Positions 15,801 through 49,425 of a stretch of DNA of 52,428 nt are shown piece after piece (the stretch's first letter is position 1; each line of letters begins with the position of its first letter). Source of the stretch: Tubiluchus corallicola (taxonomy: Eukaryota; Animalia; Priapulida). A program made the position numbers and the translations under genes. The notes below the pieces were generated by a model. That model searched no databases. It saw only the letters and a list, made by a program, of their open reading frames with translations, and was not told the origin of the DNA. Location of the stretch: positions 1 to 52,428 of the forward strand of contig JAQGDQ010001247.1 in the NCBI GenBank assembly GCA_030141605.1, read 5' to 3'.

Positions 15801-17119
15801 TAGTTATAGTAATTATAATTATAATTATGATAAAACAATATCCTCCTATTATATACTCCTAGCTAATAGTAACGACCACGCTCTCTTTTAGATACTCTCT
15901 ATATTATCAAGTGATACTGCATAGAGCGATATTTGAGTGACACGATACTAGGACAGCCTTGAAATTTTCCGAATTGGACTGATTAACAATTGATTTTACT
16001 TCAGTTAAATGAACAGAACATAAAACGTCTTGTGATATCCTTTTTGCTGTTCAGTTTTGCTAGCAAACCTCAAACCGAGACCGAAAATGCAAAGACGACA
16101 AGCAATTAAACCTTTCTTCCCCGTATATCGAGGCCCTAACAAACATTCAATTTGAAAACCATGTCACGTGGTACGAAAACCTATTTATTCCTTTATTTTT
16201 CTCCTTCTACCAACCTGCGGGCTCGTCATCAATCTAATTTTCCACCCAGAAAGCCAGCGACATCTGCGTCTAAAATCGATTACACTTTAACAGGCTTCAA
16301 TTAGAGGCATTAAACCCTTGCGGGCAGGCACAGCGCTTTCTGTAACTCCAACACGCTTTGAGTAGGGACTTGATCGCGTCATCTTGCATGTTATTGATAA
16401 TGTAAAACTTTAATGCCAGTAAGATTGCATGACACGAGCAGGCGTGCACAGCTCTCCCGCGATTAACAGCCGAATTTCCCGCTTAATTGATTTGTTTGAA
16501 TGTATGGTAGCGTTCAATGGCCACCGTATGGTAGCCTTCAATGGCCACCGTATTATATACGCAACTATCGCGCTGCGTTTCGATTGCGATTTCTGATTTC
16601 AGGAAGTGGATTCACCGTGGATGAGTTCTTTAACTTCCGGCACTTTTGTCCAACAAAACCCAAATTAACTCCGTGTTAACTGAAGTGGAATAAAACGTCA
16701 ACTCCATTAGCAAGGAAGAGACTGGAATAACAACAGACACAAGTTTGGTTAGTGATTTGCAGGTTGCAGGAAGTCAGACCGATTTTATCTTATTCGGAAC
16801 CGGAAGTTTGTTTACATCTCAAAGGATGTGCAACAAATGAACAAAATCTTTGTATCCTTCTTGCGAAATGAAGCCAAACTCTTCTCGATTAGACTAAAAA
16901 CGATGGATTTCCAGCCAATGTAAATCAGCAGTTGCGTTGTTTGATACCCGAGAGATAAACCGTCGTGGCACGAAACTTTTTTATTACATATTTGAAAGTC
17001 AGACTTAATAAAATTATTGAACTGTTTGTGATCATCCGAGTTTACTTGTAATATTTCACTGATTTAAAACAAAGTAACTGTAAAGGATTGAGTTTACAAT
17101 TCTAAACACATTTTACATA

Positions 17120-17224
17120 CCCTAACCCTAACCCTAACCCTAACCATAACCCTAACTCTAACCCCAACCCCAATTCTAATCCTAACCCTAATCCTAATCC
17201 TAATCCTAACCTTAACCCTAATCT
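17120..17224. repeat. Degenerate (CCCTAA)n tract
   Basis: cctaaccctaaccctaac... flanked by the inverted motif gagtttacaattc / gaattgtaaact. Confidence 0.8.
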
Positions 17225-18890: not shown

Positions 18891-19687
18891 TCCAACAAAC
18901 ACAAACCACAACTCACAATCAAATCTAGACTCATATAAGGAATGAAAACCTTTCTCAACACCAAAGCTTTTGTTTAACAAATCACTCCTATCACCAACTT
19001 TTACAAACAGCATTAAAGAGTACACGGCTACACCGATGGGTACCTCATAAACGTGCATTTTTTGCCCCAAATCGATTTTCCCGGCGCTGAAAAACCAAAA
19101 GAGGCGAGAACAAAACCGGTGAAGCCATCGCTACCTGAAAAGCGTCTCTAAGTGTTTCAGTGAAGCTTGCATTTTAACTCTCATTCGAATCAATGTCATG
19201 GGAGCCTATACAAAATTCAACAAAACAAAATCCATGCGTGAAGTTTGAGAAACATTATATGTCAGCCACTCTCATTGATTTATAGGTCTCTCACTGGGGA
19301 AACTCCAAACGTTGGTGAAGTTACTAAGACACGCGCAGTTGGAGGTGTTGAAATTCTGATACCCGATTTTCAAAAGCTTGAAAACATTTTCATGAACGTA
19401 ATGAAAGGGAAGCGAAACAGGAAAGCGAGGCACAAGAAAGCAGGAAGAGAGCAGGAAGCAGGACTAGGACCATTAACTAGAATCCAGGTAAAAAAACACA
19501 CGTGTAAAAAAGTCAAAGGAAAAAAGTTACAGCAAAAAAAAAATTACAGAAAAAAGGCATAAAAAATAAGTAACCCGAAGCCTGACCCTAATCCTAAGCT
19601 TAAGCCTAAGCCTAAGCCTAATCCTAAGCTTAAGCCTAAGCCTAATCTCTACCAAAATTGTGACCTCTTTCCTGTGACTTTTTCCCT

Positions 19688-25019: not shown

Positions 25020-25429
25020 AATTTATAAGAAACACATCTACATACATCACGGTGTTGATTTAATACATCTATTCCTAGCAAAATTCATTCATACCTCTTA
25101 ATTTAGAATCACTTATAGTTTAAATTTCATGCCCATAAAAATGTGTTAACTTGCGCATCTCCACTTTTGTTTAAATATATAAATTGATCGATATCACGCA
25201 AGAATGGAAAGCAATATTAATAAAATAGTAATGAGCAACATAATCTGCTAAGTAACTGCCAGTAAAATTGATCGTGTCACACACAGTTCAGTGTTTTGGT
25301 CACTCTTTTGAATGCACCCCCTTTGTACTTCTCCGTTTACAAATCATCAACATGGTCAAGGAGAATCGAAATTCGAAAGAGAATAGAAATGTTTTAAAAT
25401 TCGAAAAAATCAACATCAAGCCTCTTAAT

Positions 25430-25700
25430 TTACCACTGGACAAAACAGAAGGGAGCATCAAATCTGCATCCATAAGTCTCTTAACTGGACAGGGAATCTA
25501 CAAGCATTTTTTGTATAATTTAGGGCTAGCGGAGACTATCACATGTGAATGCGGCACCGAAATTAAAACACCTGAACAGCTAATATACAGCTGCAACAAA
25601 GTAGATGCTAACCGAAGAAAGCACCTATCAGAAACCCTACAGGAGGAAACATAACCAGCGTATTTTTAAAAAAAGAAGAATTAAATAAAGTTGTAGTTAA
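25430..25700 (+). mobile_element. Degraded LINE C-terminal zinc-knuckle fragment (R1/I-group-like)
   Basis: LLTGQGIYKHFLYNLGLAETITCECGTEIKTPEQLIYSC resembles the LTGHG...C.CG....T..H....C motif. Confidence 0.55.
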
Positions 25701-26365: not shown

Positions 26366-27291
26366 CCCCTTTTTGCACTATCAGCTTCCTCCGGTGGTGA
26401 ACTTTGTTCTGCCACTGCGCAAGGCAGTACCATGTACTAGTTGACATTATCTCAGTAAATACACTACGTAGTAAGGATTCGCAACTTCCAATTATTAAGA
26501 TTACGAATTCTTTTATTAGTTTATTTTCCATATAGGTACTTTATAAGGTTTCTTATTAAATGCGCCTCCCACTGCGTTTACCCAGGCTATATGATTCCCA
26601 TTTACAGGATTGATATTAAATCTTCTGCCCAGCAAACCCATTAAATGACCGCAGCTTTTGTTATGCAAACTGGCGTTTCGTGAAAACAAAATTTATTGCT
26701 AATCCATTCACGAAACCGTCGTACGTTTTAGCACGCCATCTGTGGGTCATAAATTCTGTCGCACGTCAGGGTTGCGAAATGCGGGTGCCCCTTCCTAAGC
26801 TGCACACCGGGCGCACGAGTGCCTCGATACTCTCTACGTACTGTATCGTTAATGAGTTACTGAAGCCAAGTTTACAGAGAGAAGCGTTGCAGTCTCTTGA
26901 CGACACAATTGCTACATTCTCTATGTTGACGGTAATTGTCCTCCTGGCTTCGCTCTCTTATCTCCTGCTGCCAAACCACAATAAGTCACTTCGTAAACAG
27001 ATCGGCCAACTGGGGTTAATTTCGCAGTTGTGTGGACAGCATTACTGTATCAGACACGTAAACGAGTCTTTGTTGCATCACATCGCAGAGTTAGGCCTAC
27101 ATACAGGGCGGATTATCCTGTAGCCTAGTACAGGCTGCAGATTAGGGTCCCTCAAACTTAGGTAGCCCTAAGACTTTGGTAACATTTAGTAAAAAATCTG
27201 TTTTTCTCTACAATTGTGTTGAAATATGTGCTAATTTGGTTTGCAATAACTAGTAAAATAGTGGTATTTATTAGTTTATTTTTTATTATGA

Positions 27292-27905
27292 ATTCTTTAT
27301 TTGTCATTAAAATGGTTCACTCATTATAATAAAATTGAGTAAGCCTCAGCGTAATGTTAAAATAACCACACTGTTTAAGACAAATGCGTCCAGTACATAT
27401 TAAAAAAAAAACTAACGTGCAAAACTATATACAATAAATGAACATATTTACAAACACCATATTAAAATATTTTTACAAAACAATATTACAAAAAAGTACA
27501 TTAAATTTTACATGACATATTTTACACTATATATACATTTGACATGACACAATTAACAGAAACATGCTTTACATTACATAAATTTCACTCATTACATTTA
27601 TACTATTTATACATTTGACATTACAAAACTAACATAACACGTATTACATTACATAATTTTTTAAAAAAATTTCATTTCCAATCGTTATGTGGAGTCAGGG
27701 GCGGGGGTAGATGAAAGTTGAGTCTGTGTAATTAGTATCAGATGCACAATGTGGAAGTTGAAACCTGTTATATTGATATTCTTTTAATTTCTTTTTAAAG
27801 TGGTGAAGAGATTCTATTTGTTTTATTTCACTGGGTAGTAAGTTCCATAAATGTATGGCCTGTTTTGATATAGATTTATTTGCAAATTTATTGTTTACTG
27901 TAATT
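27292..27905 (-). mobile_element. LINE (Crack/L2-like) 3' end, copy 1
   Basis: Minus ORF QAIHLWNLLPSEIKQIESLHHFKKKLK...PRP* plus a ~400-bp 3'UTR repeated at 37020-37483 and 48716-49100. Confidence 0.75.
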
Positions 27906-30870: not shown

Positions 30871-31039
30871 GAGAGTCCCAAACTTTCAAATTTTAAAGAA
30901 ATCTAATAACAATCATTACCTCAGATAAAAATCACTGAGTGTTATTTTAAAAAAGTAAACCTGAAATTTTTGCAATTATAGCATTGTTTTGGCTCAGTTT
31001 TTCAAAACATTCGAGAAATGGTTTTGCTGTTAATATTCC

Positions 31040-31234
31040 AGTAAGCTACGCAGAGACATTATTACGTCATGTTGCCATAGTTACGGTACAGCATTGTGTA
31101 TTGTTAGTGACCCCTGACATTCATCATAAGCATTCTAATTCTTGCTCAGTTGAAACTTGTGTCTCCTACCTTCAATATCCTTTTCGAAGTCAGTTAAGCG
31201 TAACAACTCAACTTGTTGACTTGTTTACAATAAG
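31040..31234 (+). promoter_or_regulatory. Conserved upstream/5'UTR block shared by both LRR paralogs
   Basis: Aligns closely with 35380-35580 (for example gctcagttgaaacttgtgtctccta and gcgtaacaactcaacttgttgacttgttt). Contains a bZIP-like TTACGTCA/TTACGTCG motif. Confidence 0.55.
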
Positions 31235-31892
31235 ATGGAAGCACCTAAAGTTTCTATAATCCTTTGTAGTGCATTTATTATTGTTGTGATGTGCATTCAG
31301 CCAGGGTTTGCAGACTTCTGTGAAAAGATTGACCATCACTTATGCTTCCACATCACACAGCATTACACTGGAGACAATTGTAGTATAGTCTGCAGACCAA
31401 ACGGTCAAGAACCGAAGTGCTACCCCGGAACACCATATGAAGGTTATTGCTTAAAACCTGAGGATATTCAGAATATAGCTGATAAGCTTCCTCAACCCAT
31501 ACGTAGCCTGGATATCGAACATTTCATAACCGACGAATCCGCAGGTGGAGATTCTTTCAAAATGAATTTTCCTGGCAAATCAGTGGGTACATTATCTATA
31601 GAGTTAAGTAAATTCACTACCTTGCGTGCTAATGCTATTGTAGGTACCGTTGAGCGTCTTACAGTCGCTTTTAATGATAAACTCTTGTACATAGACCCAC
31701 GGGCTTTTGCTAAAGTAACTGGTCTACAAGAAATAAAGATTCACTTTGGCAGTCGAGATTTGAAGATTCCTGCCTTGGATTTGACTCAACAGCCAAACTT
31801 TTCTCACTTGAATGCTATGGGGGTGGAGAGCATAGAGAAACCTCAGCTACACACAAGTCGTTCCCCTTCTGAAGTTTTTATAACGGTTGGAG
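31235..31892 (+). CDS. Secreted LRR-like protein paralog A, exon 1 (219 codons + 1 nt): signal peptide, Cys-rich N-cap, degenerate LRRs
   Basis: ATG at 31235 is followed by a hydrophobic signal-like N-terminus ending GFA|DF and 6 Cys after it. LRR-like strands are IRSLDIEH, VGTLSIEL, VERLTVAFNDKLLYIDPRAFAKVTGLQEIKI and FSHLNAM. Donor is G|GTAAGT at 31893. Colinear, gap-free paralog at 35581. Confidence 0.9.
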
Positions 31893-32373
31893 GTAAGTTT
31901 CATCTTTGGCAAATAGAAGTGACAAGATGACTAAACATTAGAAAATCTCCTTTTTAAAAAGATCCTTACCTTTAGAAACCATAAAAAACAAATCTATTAT
32001 TAGGTTAGTAAACAGTTATTAAGTTCCTTAGACCGGATTAGCCAGAATTCGTGTGGGGGAGGTTTGAAACATCTAGTTCCCCCCCCCCCCCCATAAAAAC
32101 TTGCAGATTGCTTTTTTGTTTGCAGATTGTATTTTTTGCTTTACTTACTCATAAATCTACAACTAATAAATGTTTGTAAATTTATGCATGTATTTTTTAC
32201 TGCTTAACTCAAAGGGTGAACAACAAAGCTCCATCTAACAGGTTTCGACTAAGGAAAAAGTCGAAGAAATTAATAAAACCAAATTTTGCAATTTTTTGTT
32301 CTGAACAAGCTTTCAAAATGCTTCACCTGGCGGAATGTTTTATTAAAATTACTCATTACTCAAATGCTAGCAA

Positions 32374-32864
32374 CATAGGCGCACGAGAGGAAGTTTGACA
32401 AGTAGGAGGTATAATAAATTTGCCCTGAAAATTTTCCAGGTTGCCCTAATTTGAGGGGGGGGAGAGAATCAGCTCCTGACATCACACCAAATAGCAATTG
32501 TAATCGTAATAGTAAATAAAAGCAGGAACTCCGAATTATAATACCAATCTTTTACTAAGAAATTACTAGTCAAATAAGACACAAGCCAAAGGTTTGCATT
32601 TTCACTGAACAAACACGCAAATACTTTCACGATACTTTTTCTAACGTTTGACAATTTCAAAAGAAATAATGGTGACGGTTAATGTTTCCCTTTTGCAAAC
32701 TTGTCTATGACTTACTTTCCCAGCATACCGAGGGAAATGTGCTTAGTAAGTGAAGAGTGGACTTATGAGGTTTAGTGAACTAAAACTGATAGCAGGTACT
32801 ATCACAACTTTATAATTACTAAAACTTATATACAATTCGTTTCGCAAAGAACTCTTTAATTGCG

Positions 32865-32945
<81 letters not shown>

Positions 32946-33028
32946 AAAAGAGATAGAAAACGAGAGGGAGACAGAAAGAGAGAGGGAGAGAGACAGAAAG
33001 AGAGAGAGAGGGAAAGAGAAAGACAGAA

Positions 33029-33101
<73 letters not shown>

Positions 33102-33257
33102 CGCAAGCAATCATTGAAATCTTATTAAATTCTGAAATTTTAAAACAGAATTATTTACCCCTCAAAATAATTAGCTTTAGCCCTGAAAATGTACAATTCT
33201 TTTGCTGTGGGAAGGCAATCGCCCCACCCCCTTAACCCCAAGCATCGTACGCCTATG
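32374..33257. mobile_element. hAT-like MITE in the intron of LRR paralog A
   Basis: TIRs CATAGGCGCACGA / TCGTACGCCTATG with flanks GCTAGCAA / GCTAATAA (6/8 match). Absent from the paralog B intron. Contains (GA)n. Confidence 0.65.
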
Positions 33258-33281
33258 GCTAATAAGGATTTTCTTTTCTAG

Positions 33282-33436
33282 GTATGTGGTTGGTCTGCGA
33301 CAAGCGTCTACTCTGGTCTCTCAAAGACGAGTGGAAGCATGTGGACTTAAAATGCGGTGTGCCGAATCCTAGGCGTGTTATTGGAAAACAATTCAAAGAA
33401 GCATGCAAAGTGCTTGAGTTATGCCCAAAGGATTAG
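33282..33436 (+). CDS. Secreted LRR-like protein paralog A, exon 2 (LRRCT-like cap, stop)
   Basis: Acceptor TTTTCTTTTCTAG. The phase-1 join gives GMWLVCDKRLLWSLKDEWKHVDLKCGVPNPRRVIGKQFKEACKVLELCPKD*, matching the LRRCT pattern W..CD..L.W...C..P..(L)G. Homologous exon at 37581. Spliced product is 270 aa. Confidence 0.85.
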
Positions 33437-33696
33437 GCTAAAATTTTTGTCTAAATTTTGGAGACCCTTTCTATTAGTTGTTTTATTTTCAAGAAAAATT
33501 GTTTTTTTCTTACAAAAACCATTAATTTTATCCGTTGTTGTTTATTTTACAAATCCATTTATTTGTAATAAGAAAACTTCAGTCGTCTAAATCCATAACG
33601 TATTCTAGTATTCGAATTATATTGACTTACTACTTGTGTTTAAGAAATTTAAATTTTTATTTTTTAGCATTTTCGCTTGTATGCTTTAATGTTCGA

Positions 33697-33702
33697 AATA
33701 AA
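33697..33702 (+). promoter_or_regulatory. Putative polyadenylation signal of LRR paralog A
   Basis: AATAAA about 260 nt after the stop, conserved at the homologous position of paralog B (38011-38016). Confidence 0.5.
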
Positions 33703-33897
33703 TTTAATTAAAACGTCTAAAATGTTTTAAATGATTTTGTGATATAATTGTACACAAGTCAATGATGTGTACAATTACATAATTACATTACAATTAGAAT
33801 TCGGTGATACTTATAATTTTCCTTTTGTAAATTTTGTTAACTCTTCCTATATTGCTGTTGTCCTGGCCATGCCCGGGCAGTTTTGAGAGCAACAGCG

Positions 33898-35181
33898 ACC
33901 AAAACCAGAATCTTGGCCAGGTTCCTGTTGAAGTTCTAAACCAGAATCCTGGTCAGGTTCCTCCCGACGCTTCAAAACAGAATCCTGGTCAAGTTCCTTC
34001 CAACATTTGAAACCAGAATCCTGGTCAAGTTCCTTCCAACATTTGAAACCAGAATCCTGGCTAGGTTCCTCCCGACATTTGAAACCAGAATCCTGGTCAG
34101 GTTCATCCCGACGCTTAAAAACAGAATCCTGGTCAGGTTCCTTCTGACATTTGAAACCAGAATCCTGGTCAGGTTTCTCCCAACATTTGAAACCGGAATC
34201 CTGGTCAGGTTCCTCTCAACATTTGAAACCAGAATCCTAGTCAGGTTCATCCCGACGCTTAAAAACAGAATCCTGGTCAGGTTCCTTCTGACATTTGAAA
34301 CCAGAATCCTGGTCAGGTTCCTCCCAACATTTGAAACCAGAATCCTGGTCAGGTTCATCCCGACGCTTAAAAACAGAATCCTGGCTAGGTTCCTTCTGAC
34401 ATTTGAAGCCAGAATCCTGGTCAGGTTCCTCTCAACATTTGAAACCAGAATCCTAGTCAGGTTCCTCTCAACATTTGAAACCAGAACCCTGGTCAGGTTC
34501 CTCCTGACATTTGAAGCCAGAATCCTGGTCAGGTTCCTCTCAACATTTGAAACCAGAATCCTGGTCAGGTTCCTCTCAACATTTGAAACCAGAATCCTAG
34601 TCAGGTTCCTTCTGACATTTGAAGCCAGAATCCTGGTCAGGATTCTCCTGGCATTTGAAACCAGAATCCTGGTCAGGTTCCTCCCAACATTTGAAACCAG
34701 AATCCTGGTCAGGTTCCTCTCAACATTTGAAACCAGAATCCTAGTCAGGTTCCTCCCAACATTTGAAACCAGAATCCTGGTCAGGTTCATCCTGACATTT
34801 GAAACCAGAATCCTGGTCAGGTTCCTCCTGACATTTGAAACCAGAATCCTGGTCAGGTTCCTCCCAACATTTGAAACCAGAAGGTCAGGTTCCTCCCGAC
34901 ATTTGAAACCAGGATCCTGATCAGATTCCTCCCGATGCATAAAAACAGAATCCTGGTCAAGTTCCTTCCGTTACTTGAAACCAAAATCCTAGTCAGGTTT
35001 CTCCTGACATTTGAAACCAGAATCCTGGCCAGGTTCCTCCCAACATTTGAAACCAGAATCCTGGTCAGGTTTCTCCTGACATTTGAAACCAGAATCCTGG
35101 TCAGGTTCCTCCCGATGCTTAAAAACAGAATCCTGGTCAGGTTCCTCCCGATGCTTAAAAACAGAATCCTGGTCAAGTTTC
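33898..35181. repeat. 36-bp minisatellite, ~35 copies, between the two LRR paralogs
   Basis: Unit ccagaatcctggtcaggttcctcccaacatttgaaa, with variation concentrated in a short central segment. Confidence 0.95.
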
Positions 35182-35580
35182 ACAAAACTGCAATGCATTA
35201 CATCACATTTATCAACATTAATAATAATTTGACAATCATTACTCCACTTACACTATATCATGAAATTCGCCACAGTTAAATCTATCATTTTTGATGAATT
35301 GATAAGAATATATGACTACTAATTTTTTAAAAAGAAACCTTTTCGTTTTGGCGTTGTTTTTAATATGCGAACATATAATATTCTAATAAGTTACGCAGAT
35401 ACATTATTACGTCGTGTTGTCATAGGTACGGTACAGCATCGTGAATTGTTAGTGACCCCTGGACATTCCTAATAAATATTGCAATTTTTGCTCAGTTGAA
35501 ACTTGTGTCTCCTATCTTCAATGTCTCTCTTGAAGTCAGTCAAGCGTAACAACTCAACTTGTTGACTTGTTTGCACTAAG

Positions 35581-36238
35581 ATGGAAGCACCTAAAGTTTC
35601 TACAGTCCTTTGTGGTGCATTTACTATTGCTGTGATGTGCATTCAGCCAGGGTTTACAGATTTCTGTAAAACGATTGACCATCAGTCATGCAGTCATGTC
35701 ACACACTTTCACAGTGGAGACAATTGCACTATATTCTGCAGACCAAACCGTAAAGAACCAAAGTGTTACCAGGGAACAGCATATGAAGGTCATTGCTTGA
35801 ATCCTGGAGACATTCAGAATATAGCTGATAAGCTTCCTCAACCTATAGACAGTGTGTATATTGAACAGTTCGTAACCGACGAATCCTCAGGTGGAGAGCC
35901 TTTCAGAATGAATTTTACGGGCAAATCTGTGAAATTCTTACATATAATTTTAAGTACATTCACTTCCTTGCATGCTAATGCTATTGCAGGTACCATTAGA
36001 AGTCTCGTGTTCTCCCATAATGCCCAGCTCATGCACATACACCCACAGGCTCTTGCTAAAGTAACTGGTCTACGAGCACTGAAGATTCGATGCAACCAAC
36101 CTGACATGACGATTCCTGCCTTGGATTTGACTCAAAATCTAAAGTTTGATTTCTTGTTTGTACAGGGCGTGGAGAGCATACAGAAGCCTCAGCTACACCC
36201 GAGTCGTCCCCCCTCTAAAGTTAGGATTGTGGTTAGAG
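35581..36238 (+). CDS. Secreted LRR-like protein paralog B, exon 1
   Basis: Same length and donor position (G|GTAAGT at 36239) as paralog A. About 63% aa identity (137/219 by hand count). All N-cap Cys are conserved. Confidence 0.9.
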
Positions 36239-36664
36239 GTAAGTTTCCTCTAATCTTTGGCAAATATAAGTGACAAAATTTCGAAAAAAATCTCTAATAA
36301 ACGATGGTCGATCTCCTTTCAAAAAAGCTCTCTCCCATTGACAAGTTGTAAAAAAAGAAAAAACTGTCATCAGGTTGCTAAACACTCAACAGCCATTAAA
36401 GGCTTAGACTGGTTTGGCCACGATTTGTATGGGGGAGGTTTGAAACAGTGGGGGAGTTTCTTTCCCTCTCCCCCTCCTGCTGCGCTGGCCGCTGACATGT
36501 CTTATTGCACTTGAGTATCTTGGGCATTATACACCCGTACATTTATAGTTTTTCTTTTATGGATTGCACTTTTTGCTTTATTTACTAATAAACGTTTGTA
36601 AATTTATGAGTGTATTTTACAGCGGAACAAATTCTGCATTTTTACGTAGAAATAGTTTTGTAGG

Positions 36665-36960
36665 AAAAATTAGTTTCTTTAGCATAAAGACTAAAGCAAT
36701 AAACCTGGAATACATTGCAGGCTTTGCATTTACTTACAACAGAAAACATTAATTTGTAAGATAAAAACAACGAAACAGAAAAATTTAATGGTTTTGAAAG
36801 AATAAACGTTTGTAAAACAACAAACAATAAAATTGTTTCTAAAAATAAAATAACAAATAATAGAATAATTCTCTAAACATAAAATAAAAATTTTACCTTA
36901 ATCTTTTTGGACATATGTCAAGCATTTTTCATGCTAGAGTTGTGAGTTCTTTTCCAGAAA
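36665..36960 (-). pseudogene. Inverted, diverged copy of LRR exon-2 3' end plus 3'UTR inside the paralog B intron
   Basis: Reverse complement aligns to 37671-37967 and translates as SGKELTTLA*KMLDICPK versus SGKEFTTFACKMLDICPK (TGC>TGA). Confidence 0.85.
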
Positions 36961-37019
36961 CTTTTAGTTTATGGTTAATTATATATATATAATTATTCTT
37001 TATATTATATATATATATT

Positions 37020-37483
37020 AATTCTTTATTTGTCATTAAAATGGTTCACTCATTATAATAAAATTGAGTAATCCTCAGCGTAATGTTAAAATAACAACAC
37101 TGTTCAAGACAAATGCGTCAGGTGCATACTAAAAAAACGAAAGTGCAAAACTATATACAATAAATGAACATATTTACAAACACCATATTAAAATATTTTT
37201 CTAAAACAATATTACAAAAGTACAGTAAATTTTACATGACATATTTTACACTATATATACATTTGACATGACACAATTAACAGAAACATGCTTTACATTA
37301 CATAAATTTCACTCATTACATATTCACTATTTATACATTTGACATTACAAGACTAACAAAACACGTATTACATTACATAATTCTTAAAAAAAAAATCATT
37401 TTTAATCGTTTTATGGAGTCAGGGGCGGGGGTAGATGAAAGTTGAGTCTGTGTAATTAGTATCAGATGCACAATGTGGAAGTT
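37020..37483 (-). mobile_element. Same LINE 3' end, copy 2 (in the paralog B intron)
   Basis: Near-identical to 27292-27760. Confidence 0.8.
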
Positions 37484-37580
37484 AAAACAATTCTCAACAA
37501 GTTTTTAAAATCAGTCGTGCTGCAGATGTCTCGTTAAAATTGGTCATTACACGATTGTAAACGAGGATTTTGTTATCTAG

Positions 37581-37732
37581 GTCCTTGGCTGATCTGCGAC
37601 AAGCGTCTGATCTGGACTCTGGAGGACAAGTGGGAATTAATAAGCTTGATATGCAGTTCACCTGAGCGTATTTCTGGAAAAGAATTCACGACTTTTGCAT
37701 GCAAAATGCTTGACATATGCCCAAAAAATTAG
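37581..37732 (+). CDS. Secreted LRR-like protein paralog B, exon 2 (LRRCT-like cap, stop)
   Basis: Acceptor TTTTGTTATCTAG. The phase-1 join gives GPWLICDKRLIWTLEDKWELISLICSSPERISGKEFTTFACKMLDICPKN*. Spliced product is 269 aa. Confidence 0.85.
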
Positions 37733-38010
37733 GGTAAAATTTTTGTTTTATGTTTAGAGAATTACTCTATTATTTGTTATTTTATTTTTAGAAAACAATT
37801 TCATTGTTTGTTGTCTTACAAACGTTTATTATTACAAACCATTAAATTTTCATCGTTTGCTGTTTATTTTACAAATGAACATTTTCTGTTGTAAGTAAAT
37901 GCAATCATGTAAAGTCTGCAACGTATTCAAGGTTTATGCTTTAGTTTTTATGCTAAAGAAATTATTTTTTTGTGTTTTTAGCGTTTACGTTTGTACTTTT
38001 TAATGTTTGA

Positions 38011-38016
38011 AATAAA
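38011..38016 (+). promoter_or_regulatory. Putative polyadenylation signal of LRR paralog B
   Basis: AATAAA in the same context (ttgaAATAAAttt) as in paralog A. Confidence 0.5.
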
Positions 38017-38097
38017 TTTTAATTAAAAAGTCTAAAATGTTCTAAACGATTATAATCGATTTGGCATTGATTTTTAAAAATATCAATACAACAAAAA

Positions 38098-42444: not shown

Positions 42445-43505
42445 CGATTTTGGGGCGAATCTCCTGAAAGCCTCGTTCCCATTACAAACTTTCGTAAGTA
42501 ATCATTCGCTGAATACCAGGCCATACGATATGCAGTGGTCAAATATCAACTAATGAGGAGGTTCTAGATCTTAGCGGGTACCTATTTGGGGCGTACCTCC
42601 TGAAAACCTCGCTCCCATTACAAATGGGTCGTCATTCGTGGAATACCAGACTCATACTTAGGATATGTAATGGTCAAATATCGACTAATGAAGAGCTTAT
42701 AAATCTTTGGATGTACCTATTTGGGGCGTACCTCCTGAAAACCCCACTCCCATTACAAATGGGTCGTCATTCGTGGAATACCAGACTCATACGTAGGATA
42801 TGTAATGGTCAAATATCGACTAATGAAGAGCTTATAAATCTTTGGATGTACCTATTTGGGGCGTACCTCCTGAAAACCCCACTCCCATTACAAATGGGTC
42901 GTCATTCATGGAATACCAGACTCATACGTAGGATATGTAATGGTCAAATATCAACTAATGAGGCGGTTATAGATCTTTGGATGTACCTATTTGGGGCGTA
43001 CCTCCTGAAAGCCCCGCTTCCATTACAAATGGGTCGTCATTCGTGGAATGCCAGACTCATACGTAGGATATGTAATGGTCAAATATCAACTAATGAGGAG
43101 GTTCTAGATCTTAGCGGGTACCTATTTGGGGCGTACCTCCTGAAAACCTCGCTCCCATTACAAATGGGTCGTCATTCATGGAATACCAGACTCATACGTA
43201 GGATATGTAATGGTCAAATATCGACTAATGAAGAGCTTATAAATCTTTGGATGTACCTATTTGGGGCGTACCTCCTGAAAGCCCCGCTTCCATTACAAAT
43301 GGGTCGTCATTCGTGGAATACCAGACTCATACGTAGGATATGTAATGGTCAAATATCAACTAATGAGGCGGTTATAGATCTTTGGATGTACCTATTTGGG
43401 GCGTACCTCCTGAAAGCCACACTCCCATCACAAATGGGTGGTCATTCGTGGAATGCCAGACTCATACGTAGGATATGTAATGGTCAAATATAAACTAATG
43501 AGGAG
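42445..43505. repeat. 129-bp minisatellite x~8
   Basis: 43-aa periodicity in ORF 42624-43493 reflects the 129-bp unit. Confidence 0.95.
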
Positions 43506-44654
43506 ATTATCTCATCCCGGGCTGTTGAAACACAACTCCTGCGTACTTTCACTGATAGAAATAATTTATACAGACGGAAATTCTCACAGTTTTCGGGTTT
43601 TTAATGCGCAATATTTGCGCGCCATGTTTTCTATTTCAGTCTCAACAAACTGCTGTGATATTACAATTCATCTGACTGAAAAGCGCGGATTTGTGCTCGC
43701 AGAAGAAGAAGAAAGTTATCTCACCCCGCATCTTCTGATGATGAAGAATGAATGTATGGTGATTAATGATCGCAAGTACAACGTGAAAAGCTCAAGTAAA
43801 GAGCTTCTCTGGTGAATACTAATCGTTCAGAGTATTTGCAGCGTCCATCCGCATTGGCGAAATTGATATGTCAAGCGAGAATATAGCTGCTGGTGTTGTC
43901 TGTCCGCTTGTTTGTCTATCTGTCTATCAATATCTTGTAGCAGACGGGAAACTGATAATTCTAGTACCGTCGATCCGAGTAAGTTTATTTAACTTGAAAT
44001 CTGCTGTGACAAATCTATGGAGAAAAAGGCATGATTGTCGACATGAAAGGTCAAAGGTCAAATTTGTAGCAAATTGGTCTTTCGTACATGTGAAACCGTA
44101 TCTAGAATACAGTATCAGCTCCTGCGAAATTGGATAACTTAATAAATAACATGCGAACAAAATACACGAAAGGCAAAGACAAAATCATAATGAATCACAT
44201 GCGTATATGTTTGTTTGCGAACCGTTCGCCTGTTTGTTGTTAATTTGTTAATGTAAGTTATAAGTTAATGTCCTAGCTAACGGGCACGAATATAAATACG
44301 GAAGTTCAAAGGTCAACGTCACAAAATTTTTTAACTGTATATTTTCTTTACTTGTTTGTTTATGAAGCCAGATTAGTATGTAAAAAAGCAGAAGCTAGCA
44401 ACACCAAACCAGGCAGTATTCTCTTTATCAGACACCCGTCGTAAAAATAAAAGATTAAGGTCACGGTTCAAGGTCACTGGGCTGGTAATCAAAGTCTGGG
44501 ACTATGAGCGTTTCAGTCGCTATTAGTCATTTCACAAACTGCTAAGCTTACAACACAGAACTACTGAAATATTGATGCAGTAATAAAACAATCGTAAGGC
44601 AGTGGTAGCATTTATAAATTTTTGATTAATCACATGCAATTATGTGACAGAACA

Positions 44655-48671: not shown

Positions 48672-48715
48672 TATATTAATAATAATATGTATACATATAT
48701 AATATATATTATATT

Positions 48716-49100
48716 AATTCTTTATTTGTCATTAAAATGGTTCACTCATTATAATAAAATTGAGTAAGCCTCAGCGTAATGCTAAAATAACAACACTGTT
48801 CAAGACAAATGCGTCCAGTGCAGACTAAAAAAAAACTAAAGTGCAAAACTAAGGCCTAATTATATACAATAAATGAACATATTTACAAACACCATATTAA
48901 AATATTTTTACAAAACAATATTACAAAAATACATTAAATTTTACATGACATATTTTACACTATATATACATTTGACATGACACAATTAACAGAAACATGC
49001 TTTACATTACATAAATTTCACTCATTACATTTATACTATTTATACATTTGACATTACAAAACTAACATAACACATATTAGATTACATAATTTTTTTAAAT
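48716..49100 (-). mobile_element. Same LINE 3'UTR, copy 3
   Basis: Near-identical to 27292-27665 and adjacent to (TA)n. Confidence 0.8.
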
Positions 49101-49425
49101 TTTTACATTTTAAATAATAATAGTTAAATAATTTACTAATTATTTCAATGAAGCACAATAATTGATTCAAACGGTAGGCCTATCGCCAGTTTGTAAAGAA
49201 GTTTATTTAACAAGATTTCCGGCATTGCTTACAATGGCTTCAACGTGGTGTGAGTTTTAGTTTTCCGTGTAACTCGACGCGAATTAGAGCACTTGAACAG
49301 TAACGTGGGAAAAGTTAACATATTGACTTAATACAAAGAAAACTAAACACCAGAGGGCGCGACGAGACGATGAAAAACAGTGGCTATTCAAACGCGAAGT
49401 TAACAAATGACGCTGTTACTTCAGC

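What the first reader, a model, noticed from the sequence alone, without database searches (positions are those of the whole stretch)
31235..37732. Tandem pair of secreted LRR-like proteins with hypervariable predicted concave face: candidate invertebrate variable-recognition family
Seen: two intact two-exon genes with identical exon-1 length and intron phase. Each has a signal peptide, a 6-Cys N-cap, ~6 irregular LRR strands and an LRRCT-like cap, and neither has a TM or obvious GPI tail. Exon 1 differs at 82/219 residues by hand count with no indels. Framework stretches are nearly invariant even at the DNA level (attcagaatatagctgataagcttcctcaacc, gctaaagtaactggtctac, attcctgccttggatttgactcaa). 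The x positions of the xxLxLxx strands change radically: RSLDIEH/DSVYIEQ, GTLSIEL/KFLHIIL, ERLTVAF/RSLVFSH, QEIKIHFG/RALKIRCN, SHLNAM/DFLFVQ, EVFIT/KVRIV. Known: in lamprey VLRs, plant PGIPs/RLPs and mosquito LRIM/APL1, these concave-strand residues determine ligand specificity and evolve under diversifying selection. Inference: this is a rapidly diversifying soluble recognition family (immunity, allorecognition, gamete or symbiont recognition, or secretion/venom). I do not recognise it as a named family.
Basis: partly seen in the sequence, partly recalled or inferred. Interest (0 to 1): 0.85.

Follow-up and report, generated by a model that had tools for sequence, protein, structure and literature searches.

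The report
Fast-evolving secreted LRR gene pair
Two neighbouring intact genes of an unidentified invertebrate encode likely secreted proteins with a predicted leucine-rich-repeat fold, and their predicted binding face has changed several times faster than silent DNA, so they likely bind different foreign molecules; the pattern is familiar from immune receptors, but this family has almost no detectable relatives.

Summary
Two intact two-exon paralogs (270 and 269 aa) have equal 658-nt first exons differing at 82 of 219 residues. AlphaFold models match LRR solenoids (best Z 9.9 and 11.6), with no specific family. At the 30 strand x-positions 23 residues differ, against 34 of 109 elsewhere in the repeats; dN/dS there is about 5.6 (interval about 3-12) versus 0.86 elsewhere. 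It stays above 1 against neighbouring codons (3.2, p=0.009) but is not significant on those 30 codons alone (2.1, p=0.28). Two claims fail: the framework is not near-invariant (dN/dS about 0.9), and APL1 is a poor precedent. One relative was found (P0001, 32% identical), sharing framework but not face residues. New here: an inverted, decayed piece of a B-like copy lies in gene B's intron. No genome or RNA was available, so family size, expression and ligand are untested. Best reading: soluble germline-encoded binders diversified for foreign ligands. The scan noted the same pattern before in another animal (e1-7393971), with no sequence look-alike.

The parts
31031..31234 (+). Upstream region conserved between the two genes; holds a bZIP-like TTACGTCA motif at 31062 (motif label recalled)
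   Evidence: 179 matches, 25 mismatches to 35376-35580; motif scan
31235..31892 (+). Gene A exon 1: likely signal peptide (about 1-26), 6-Cys N-cap, six irregular LRR-type strands
   Evidence: homology to P0001 E=4e-14 pairwise
31893..33281 (+). Gene A intron, GT..AG, phase 1, 1389 nt (predicted, no RNA)
33282..33436 (+). Gene A exon 2 coding part: four-Cys LRRCT-like cap and stop
   Evidence: matches the cap of P0001, E=2e-6 pairwise
33437..33736 (+). Likely 3' UTR of gene A, poly(A)-type hexamers at 33697 and 33707
   Evidence: similar to B's 3' region; hexamer scan
33902..35179 (.). 36-bp tandem array (35.6 copies) between the two genes
35376..35580 (+). Upstream region of gene B, paralogous to 31031-31234
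35581..36238 (+). Gene B exon 1, same layout as A; extra Cys171 on the fourth strand
   Evidence: AlphaFold model pLDDT 76-96 per block over the six strands
36239..37580 (+). Gene B intron, GT..AG, phase 1, 1342 nt (predicted, no RNA)
36665..36960 (-). Inverted, decayed piece of a B-like copy (end of exon 2 plus 3' UTR) inside B's intron; carries a premature stop; complementary to 37671-37970
   Evidence: 262 matches, 29 mismatches to B and 204/58 to A; translation; inverted-repeat arms
36990..37488 (.). Dispersed repeat of about 500 bp next to the inverted piece; further copies near 27265 and 48700
   Evidence: about 92% identical copies
37581..37732 (+). Gene B exon 2 coding part: four-Cys LRRCT-like cap and stop
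   Evidence: matches the cap of P0001, E=1e-8 pairwise
37733..38051 (+). Likely 3' UTR of gene B, poly(A)-type hexamers at 37841, 38011, 38022

Best explanation
The two genes are tandem duplicates encoding likely secreted, predicted LRR-fold proteins whose predicted concave face has changed faster than silent sites, most likely because selection drove the copies to bind different foreign or fast-changing ligands, as soluble pattern-recognition proteins would. Shown by sequence: duplication, intact frames, kept cysteines, excess amino-acid change at strand x-positions, and a face net charge of -3 in A and +4 in B. Predicted: splicing, secretion and the solenoid. Inferred: that the face binds a ligand, that the ligand is microbial, and that the motifs between strands, which are shared with the distant relative, hold the fold or dock a constant partner. 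The diversity is germline (gene duplication and point change), not somatic assembly.
For: Fold: 47 of the 50 listed VIA-align rows for gene B's exon-1 model are proteins I recognise as LRR proteins, 2 are cyclase-associated proteins, 1 is unnamed; best Z 9.9, rmsd 4.6, 155 aligned; P0001 best Z 11.6, rmsd 2.9, 149 aligned. All six motif-defined strands fall in DSSP strands of the model. Selection: face dN/dS 5.6 vs 0.86, LRT against 1 p=3e-8; interval about 3-12 under two codon-frequency models; 3.2 (p=0.009) and 3.4 (p=0.0006) when the rate is set only by interleaved or flanking codons; 17 of 30 face codons differ at 2-3 bases vs 25 of 237 others; register shifts of 1-4 give 11-18 differing residues vs 23. 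Function kept: in neutral simulations 0.4% keep an open frame and 0.36% keep all ten cysteines. P0001 is identical to both copies at 1 of 29 face positions and 32 of 101 others (p=0.0013). Precedents read as passages: x residues of xxLxLxx under positive selection in plant NLR paralogs (PMC3113787); concave residues of amphioxus Bf66946 needed for bacterial binding (PMC4731796); secreted LRR-only LvCD14L binds microbial patterns (PMC10178686).
Against: Only two sequences; the 30 face codons alone give dN/dS 2.1, p=0.28. The rest of the protein is close to neutral (0.91, p=0.68 against 1), so constraint is weak overall. Foldseek found no match at E<=0.001 for either model, Z values are in the range the tool calls common for repeats, and both caps are low-confidence in the models. 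Nothing here shows an immune role: many secreted LRR proteins use the same face for the animal's own partners (PMC4361550).
Confidence: 0.5

Rival explanations
1. Same fold and same selection, but the partner is a fast-evolving molecule of the animal's own species (gamete, mating or self/non-self recognition).
For: The selection signal does not identify the partner; conspecific recognition proteins also evolve this way (own knowledge).
Against: No tissue data. The invertebrate secreted LRR-only proteins in the passages I read were characterised as microbe binders, though those searches were worded towards immunity.
Confidence: 0.2
2. One burst of change after duplication re-aimed one copy at a new fixed partner (an enzyme to inhibit or a subunit to scaffold, like the 35-kDa LRR subunit of Oplophorus luciferase); there is no continuing arms race and no repertoire.
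For: A pair cannot separate one episode from continuing diversification. The Atlas ranks Oplophorus-subunit-like clusters first for P0001 (0.94, 160 of 256 features). B's odd Cys171 could link it to a partner.
Against: P0001 differs from both copies at 25 of 29 face positions while sharing framework, which fits long-running face turnover; a further decayed copy piece exists. 160 shared features is below the tool's 170 guide for same-family hits.
Confidence: 0.2
3. No positive selection: exposed positions drift under weak constraint, and gene conversion has evened out the rest, making the face look fast.
For: Non-face dN/dS about 0.9; face codons alone not significant; silent differences are somewhat higher near strands (4 of 17 core and 2 of 7 face same-residue codons vs 13 of 110 elsewhere).
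Against: Face nonsynonymous difference 0.57 per site vs 0.22 silent elsewhere and 0.12-0.22 in flanking non-coding DNA; the excess remains against codons interleaved with the face codons, which a conversion tract would share (p=0.009).
Confidence: 0.1

Closest known systems
P0001 (unnamed 272-aa Logan protein, single-member cluster)
   Same: 32% identical over 113 aligned residues of exon 1, similar length, hydrophobic N-terminus, same between-strand motifs, cap matching exon 2.
   Different: Fewer N-cap cysteines, a canonical CxC cap start, about 20 extra residues before the cap; no name or function on record.
Amphioxus VLR-like Bf66946 and agnathan VLRs (PMC4731796, passages read)
   Same: Small LRR-only solenoid with Cys caps; concave face as the variable or binding surface.
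   Different: No 24-residue LRRV consensus (spacing 28, 22, 25, 25, 22), no hydrophobic tail, cap lacks CxC, complete genes in the DNA.
Invertebrate secreted LRR-only pattern-recognition proteins, e.g. shrimp LvCD14L (PMC10178686, passages read)
   Same: Signal peptide, N-cap, six or seven LRRs, no signalling domain.
   Different: LvCD14L lacks an LRRCT and has a hydrophobic tail; no sequence link was found; ligand binding is shown for it and untested here.
Mosquito LRIM1/APL1 (PMC4361550, passages read)
   Same: Secreted LRR paralogs in tandem, described as polymorphic and positively selected.
   Different: They carry a C-terminal coiled coil, are confined to mosquitoes, and their differences spread over both faces.
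Arthropod 'Oplophorus-luciferin 2-monooxygenase non-catalytic subunit-like' LRR proteins
   Same: Nearest Atlas clusters for P0001 (0.94 and 0.92) and 0.88 for gene B.
   Different: Those clusters are 100% Pfam LRR_8 and about 350-365 aa; here LRR_8 scores 15.2 bits (cut-off 27) in B and is absent in A and P0001. Function of the Oplophorus subunit is itself unknown (PMC9491549, one passage).
Plant NLR paralog clusters (PMC3113787, passages read)
   Same: Ka/Ks above 1 only at x residues of xxLxLxx, diluted over the whole protein, as here (whole exon 1: 0.92).
   Different: Intracellular multi-domain plant receptors; same pattern, unrelated family.

Membership tests
LRR solenoid superfamily | Parallel-strand solenoid with alternating inward aliphatic residues | tested here: met
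   Models and VIA-align lists dominated by LRR proteins; Z only 9.9-11.6 and no Foldseek hit at E<=0.001
LRR solenoid superfamily | Canonical LxxLxLxxN sequence repeat / Pfam LRR above cut-off | tested here: not met
   No strict motif in either protein; relaxed motif at 2 (A) and 4 (B) places; LRR_8 15.2 bits vs 27. The repeats are degenerate.
VLR / VLR-like | LRR-only protein with Cys-rich N- and C-caps | tested here: met
   Six and four cysteines; cap similarity to P0001; caps poorly modelled
VLR / VLR-like | 24-residue LRRV consensus (as quoted in PMC4731796) | tested here: not met
   No match; spacing 22-28
VLR / VLR-like | C-terminal hydrophobic region (stalk and GPI anchor recalled) | tested here: not met
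   Last 25 residues hydrophilic
VLR / VLR-like | Somatic assembly from flanking LRR cassettes (recalled) | tested here: not met
   Both genes are complete in the DNA; tblastn shows no loose exon-1 cassettes in the window; the rest of the genome could not be searched
LRIM/APL1 | C-terminal coiled coil after the Cys-rich region | tested here: not met
   Both proteins end within the ~50-residue Cys cap. A coil-less LRIM cluster appears in the Atlas list (0.91, 142 features), so this excludes only the coiled type
LRIM/APL1 | Restricted to mosquitoes (PMC4361550) | not testable with these tools
   Organism not identified; unchecked scan notes suggest a non-arthropod
Oplophorus 35-kDa subunit-like LRR proteins | Sequence homology with typical LRR repeats | tested here: inconclusive
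   Atlas feature similarity only; no such protein recovered by HMMER searches
EPCIP / C21orf62 (PF15137) | Match to the Pfam family model | tested here: not met
   Atlas lead 0.91, 174 features for gene B exon 1, but no PF15137 hit in Pfam scans at E<=10; described as vertebrate-specific (PMC10487028)
Secreted LRR-only pattern-recognition proteins (functional class) | Binds microbial surfaces or patterns; responds to infection | not testable with these tools
   Needs RNA data and binding assays

The most novel reading that the evidence does not exclude
These two genes and the decayed piece are the visible corner of a large, lineage-specific germline repertoire of soluble antibody-like LRR binders in a little-studied invertebrate phylum: the concave face varies between members to read different microbes, while conserved motifs on the far side dock one constant effector, an independent VLR-like solution without somatic rearrangement.
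Probability: 0.15. Interest if true: 0.7.

Novelty: new member of a known kind. Interest (0 to 1): 0.38.

Why it matters
If right, it adds an undescribed, sequence-orphan family of degenerate LRR proteins to the short list of soluble variable binders in invertebrates, and gives a ready test pair: two proteins 63% identical over exon 1 whose predicted binding faces differ at 23 of 30 positions and in net charge. The evolutionary pattern itself is familiar from plant NLRs and VLR-type proteins, so a specialist would be interested rather than surprised unless the family proves large.

Tried and rejected
No whole genome is held, so paralog number could not be counted. Sequencing runs: none was listed for 31100-32000; no evidence either way. 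Homology: word-indexed search with gene A exon 1 found none among 75 candidates; full HMMER scan of 1.84 billion representatives found 1; a three-sequence profile found only P0001 among 2171 candidates; the longer-protein search found none among 7062 candidates, weak evidence; metagenome contigs gave 261 pattern matches, none confirmed. PDB sequence search: nothing below E=0.7. Pfam CLIP_SPH_mas (0.098) and QSregVF (0.16) hits treated as chance. A hidden middle exon (suggested by about 20 extra residues in P0001) was not found by tblastn or intron-to-intron tblastx. Neighbouring acceptor shifts of -3 to +3 lack an AG. The inverted piece as an assembly artefact was rejected because it is 10% diverged from B. 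Ten literature searches (listings and abstract starts seen) showed no paper on this family; the library lacks most subscription journals and no supplements were opened. No complex prediction was run: no candidate partner.
Full report
Observation. Gene A runs 31235-31892 and 33282-33436; gene B runs 35581-36238 and 37581-37732. Both first exons are 658 nt, end at GTAAGT, and join in phase 1 to an exon that follows an AG; the predicted products are 270 and 269 residues. Exon 1 aligns without gaps and differs at 82 of 219 residues and 139 of 658 bases. About 200 nt upstream, the first 180-210 nt of the intron and about 300 nt of 3' sequence are also paralogous, differing at 12%, 22% and 18% of aligned bases, so this is a tandem duplication of a whole gene. 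Ten cysteines are common to both; B has an eleventh at 171. Hydrophobicity peaks only at the N-terminus. Splicing and secretion are predictions: no RNA run was listed and no signal-peptide predictor was available.

Relatives. A full HMMER scan of 1.84 billion representatives with gene A exon 1 returned one protein, P0001 (272 aa, E=2.9e-5), unnamed, seen on one 1250-nt contig. It carries in one chain a part like exon 1 (32% over 113 residues) and a part like each exon 2 (E=2e-6 and 1e-8 pairwise), which supports the two-exon model independently. Profile searches at near and longer lengths added nothing, nor did metagenome contigs. No genome is held, so family size is unknown.

Fold. Pfam gives only a sub-threshold LRR_8 score for B (15.2 bits, cut-off 27), and no strict LxxLxLxxN motif exists in either protein. 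AlphaFold with a three-sequence alignment models B's exon-1 product (residues 26-219) at mean pLDDT 74.6, low over the N-cap and 76-96 per ten-residue block from the second strand on; P0001 models similarly, with both caps poor. Foldseek found nothing at E<=0.001. VIA-align against 48,161 chains ranks LRR proteins throughout: 47 of 50 listed rows for B by my recognition of the entries, best Z 9.9, and best Z 11.6 for P0001. The top rows are tied among TLR3, hormone receptors, chondroadherin and LGI1, so the result gives a fold, not a family. The cap in exon 2 is LRRCT-like but lacks the usual CxC.

Selection. I set six strands by the aliphatic register (starts 89, 117, 139, 164, 189, 211; spacing 28, 22, 25, 25, 22) and took the five x positions of each as the concave face, following the xxLxLxx convention (PMC3113787, passages). 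Of these 30 residues 23 differ, against 34 of 109 other repeat-region residues (p=1.4e-5) and 24 of 63 polar ones (p=7.5e-4); 17 of 30 face codons differ at two or three bases against 25 of 237 others. A pairwise codon model over 267 aligned codons (start codon and three gapped exon-2 codons left out) gives dN/dS 5.6 on the face and 0.86 elsewhere, p=3e-8 against 1, with an interval of about 3-12. Controls: with the rate set only by codons interleaved with or flanking the face codons, dN/dS is 3.2 (p=0.009) and 3.4 (p=0.0006); on the 30 codons alone it is 2.1 and not significant (p=0.28); picking the best six windows anywhere in permuted data reaches the observed 49 differences in 1.2% of 1500 trials; shifting the register lowers the count to 11-18. 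The whole of exon 1 gives 0.92, so the signal is local. P0001 agrees with both copies at 1 of 29 face positions and 32 of 101 others (p=0.0013). The face has net charge -3 in A and +4 in B.

What does not hold. Purifying selection shows mainly in the open frames and cysteines: 0.4% and 0.36% of 5000 neutral simulations keep them. APL1 is not a good precedent: its paralog differences map over both faces (PMC4361550, passage).

A further copy piece. Gene B's intron holds, on the minus strand at 36665-36960, a piece matching the end of exon 2 and the 3' UTR: 10% diverged from B and 22% from A, with a premature stop. It ends beside a dispersed repeat of about 500 bp. It is either the remnant of a third gene or a local inverted duplication from B's lineage, younger than the A/B split (A vs B 18.5% over the same stretch). 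In B's unspliced transcript it would pair with B's own last exon (duplex -324 kcal/mol against -72 for a control pair in A), looping out the acceptor; any effect on splicing is inferred and untested.

Mechanism. Most likely the proteins are exported, fold as short capped solenoids and bind ligands on the concave sheet, and after duplication selection favoured different faces. A foreign, changing ligand is the most likely driver (0.5): amphioxus Bf66946 binds bacteria through concave residues (PMC4731796, passages) and several invertebrate LRR-only proteins act as pattern receptors (PMC10178686, passages). A conspecific recognition partner (0.2), a single re-aiming to a fixed partner (0.2) and drift with conversion (0.1) remain. 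Nothing here tests the ligand.

Comparison and novelty. It works like a germline VLR-type or LRR-only binder but fails the VLR tests (repeat consensus, tail, cassette assembly within the window) and the coiled LRIM test; Atlas leads to Oplophorus-subunit-like proteins and EPCIP were not confirmed by sequence. Ten paper searches showed no description of the family. Unchecked scan notes suggest the animal is a non-arthropod, possibly a priapulid, and record the same pattern in six secreted LRR paralogs of another animal, with no sequence look-alike. Verdict: real, statistically supported for a pair, a new member of a known kind; interest 0.38.

Noticed in passing
window 36665-36960 and 37671-37970: Inverted 90%-identical copy of gene B's exon-2 end and 3' UTR inside its own intron; would form a long duplex in the unspliced RNA around the acceptor at 37580.
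   Followed up: partly
window 33902-35179: 36-bp tandem array, 35.6 copies, open for 326 aa (+) and 332 aa (-); Pfam hits were below cut-off with no significant single stretch.
   Followed up: partly
window 42527-43510: 135-bp tandem array, 7.3 copies, open for 326 aa; Pfam hits have no significant single stretch and look like summed repeat noise.
   Followed up: partly
window 27265-27764, 36990-37488, 48696-49110: Three copies of a dispersed repeat of 400-500 bp, about 92% identical; likely a non-autonomous mobile element.
   Followed up: partly
window 3384-3797/6716-7132, 6012-6361/14194-14532, 21701-22140/41821-42300: Further dispersed repeat pairs, the first two inverted, 86-93% identical.
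   Followed up: no
window 25256-25654: 132-aa open frame with a Cys/His pattern that recalls the C-terminal end of non-LTR retrotransposon proteins (recalled); no Pfam hit.
   Followed up: partly
window 17119-17221 and 19571-19645: Short internal arrays of two telomere-like hexamers, ACCCTA and AAGCCT units (telomere label recalled).
   Followed up: no
window 31062 and 35407: TTACGTC(A) motif kept upstream of both genes, resembling a bZIP site (recalled); a match is no evidence of function.
   Followed up: no
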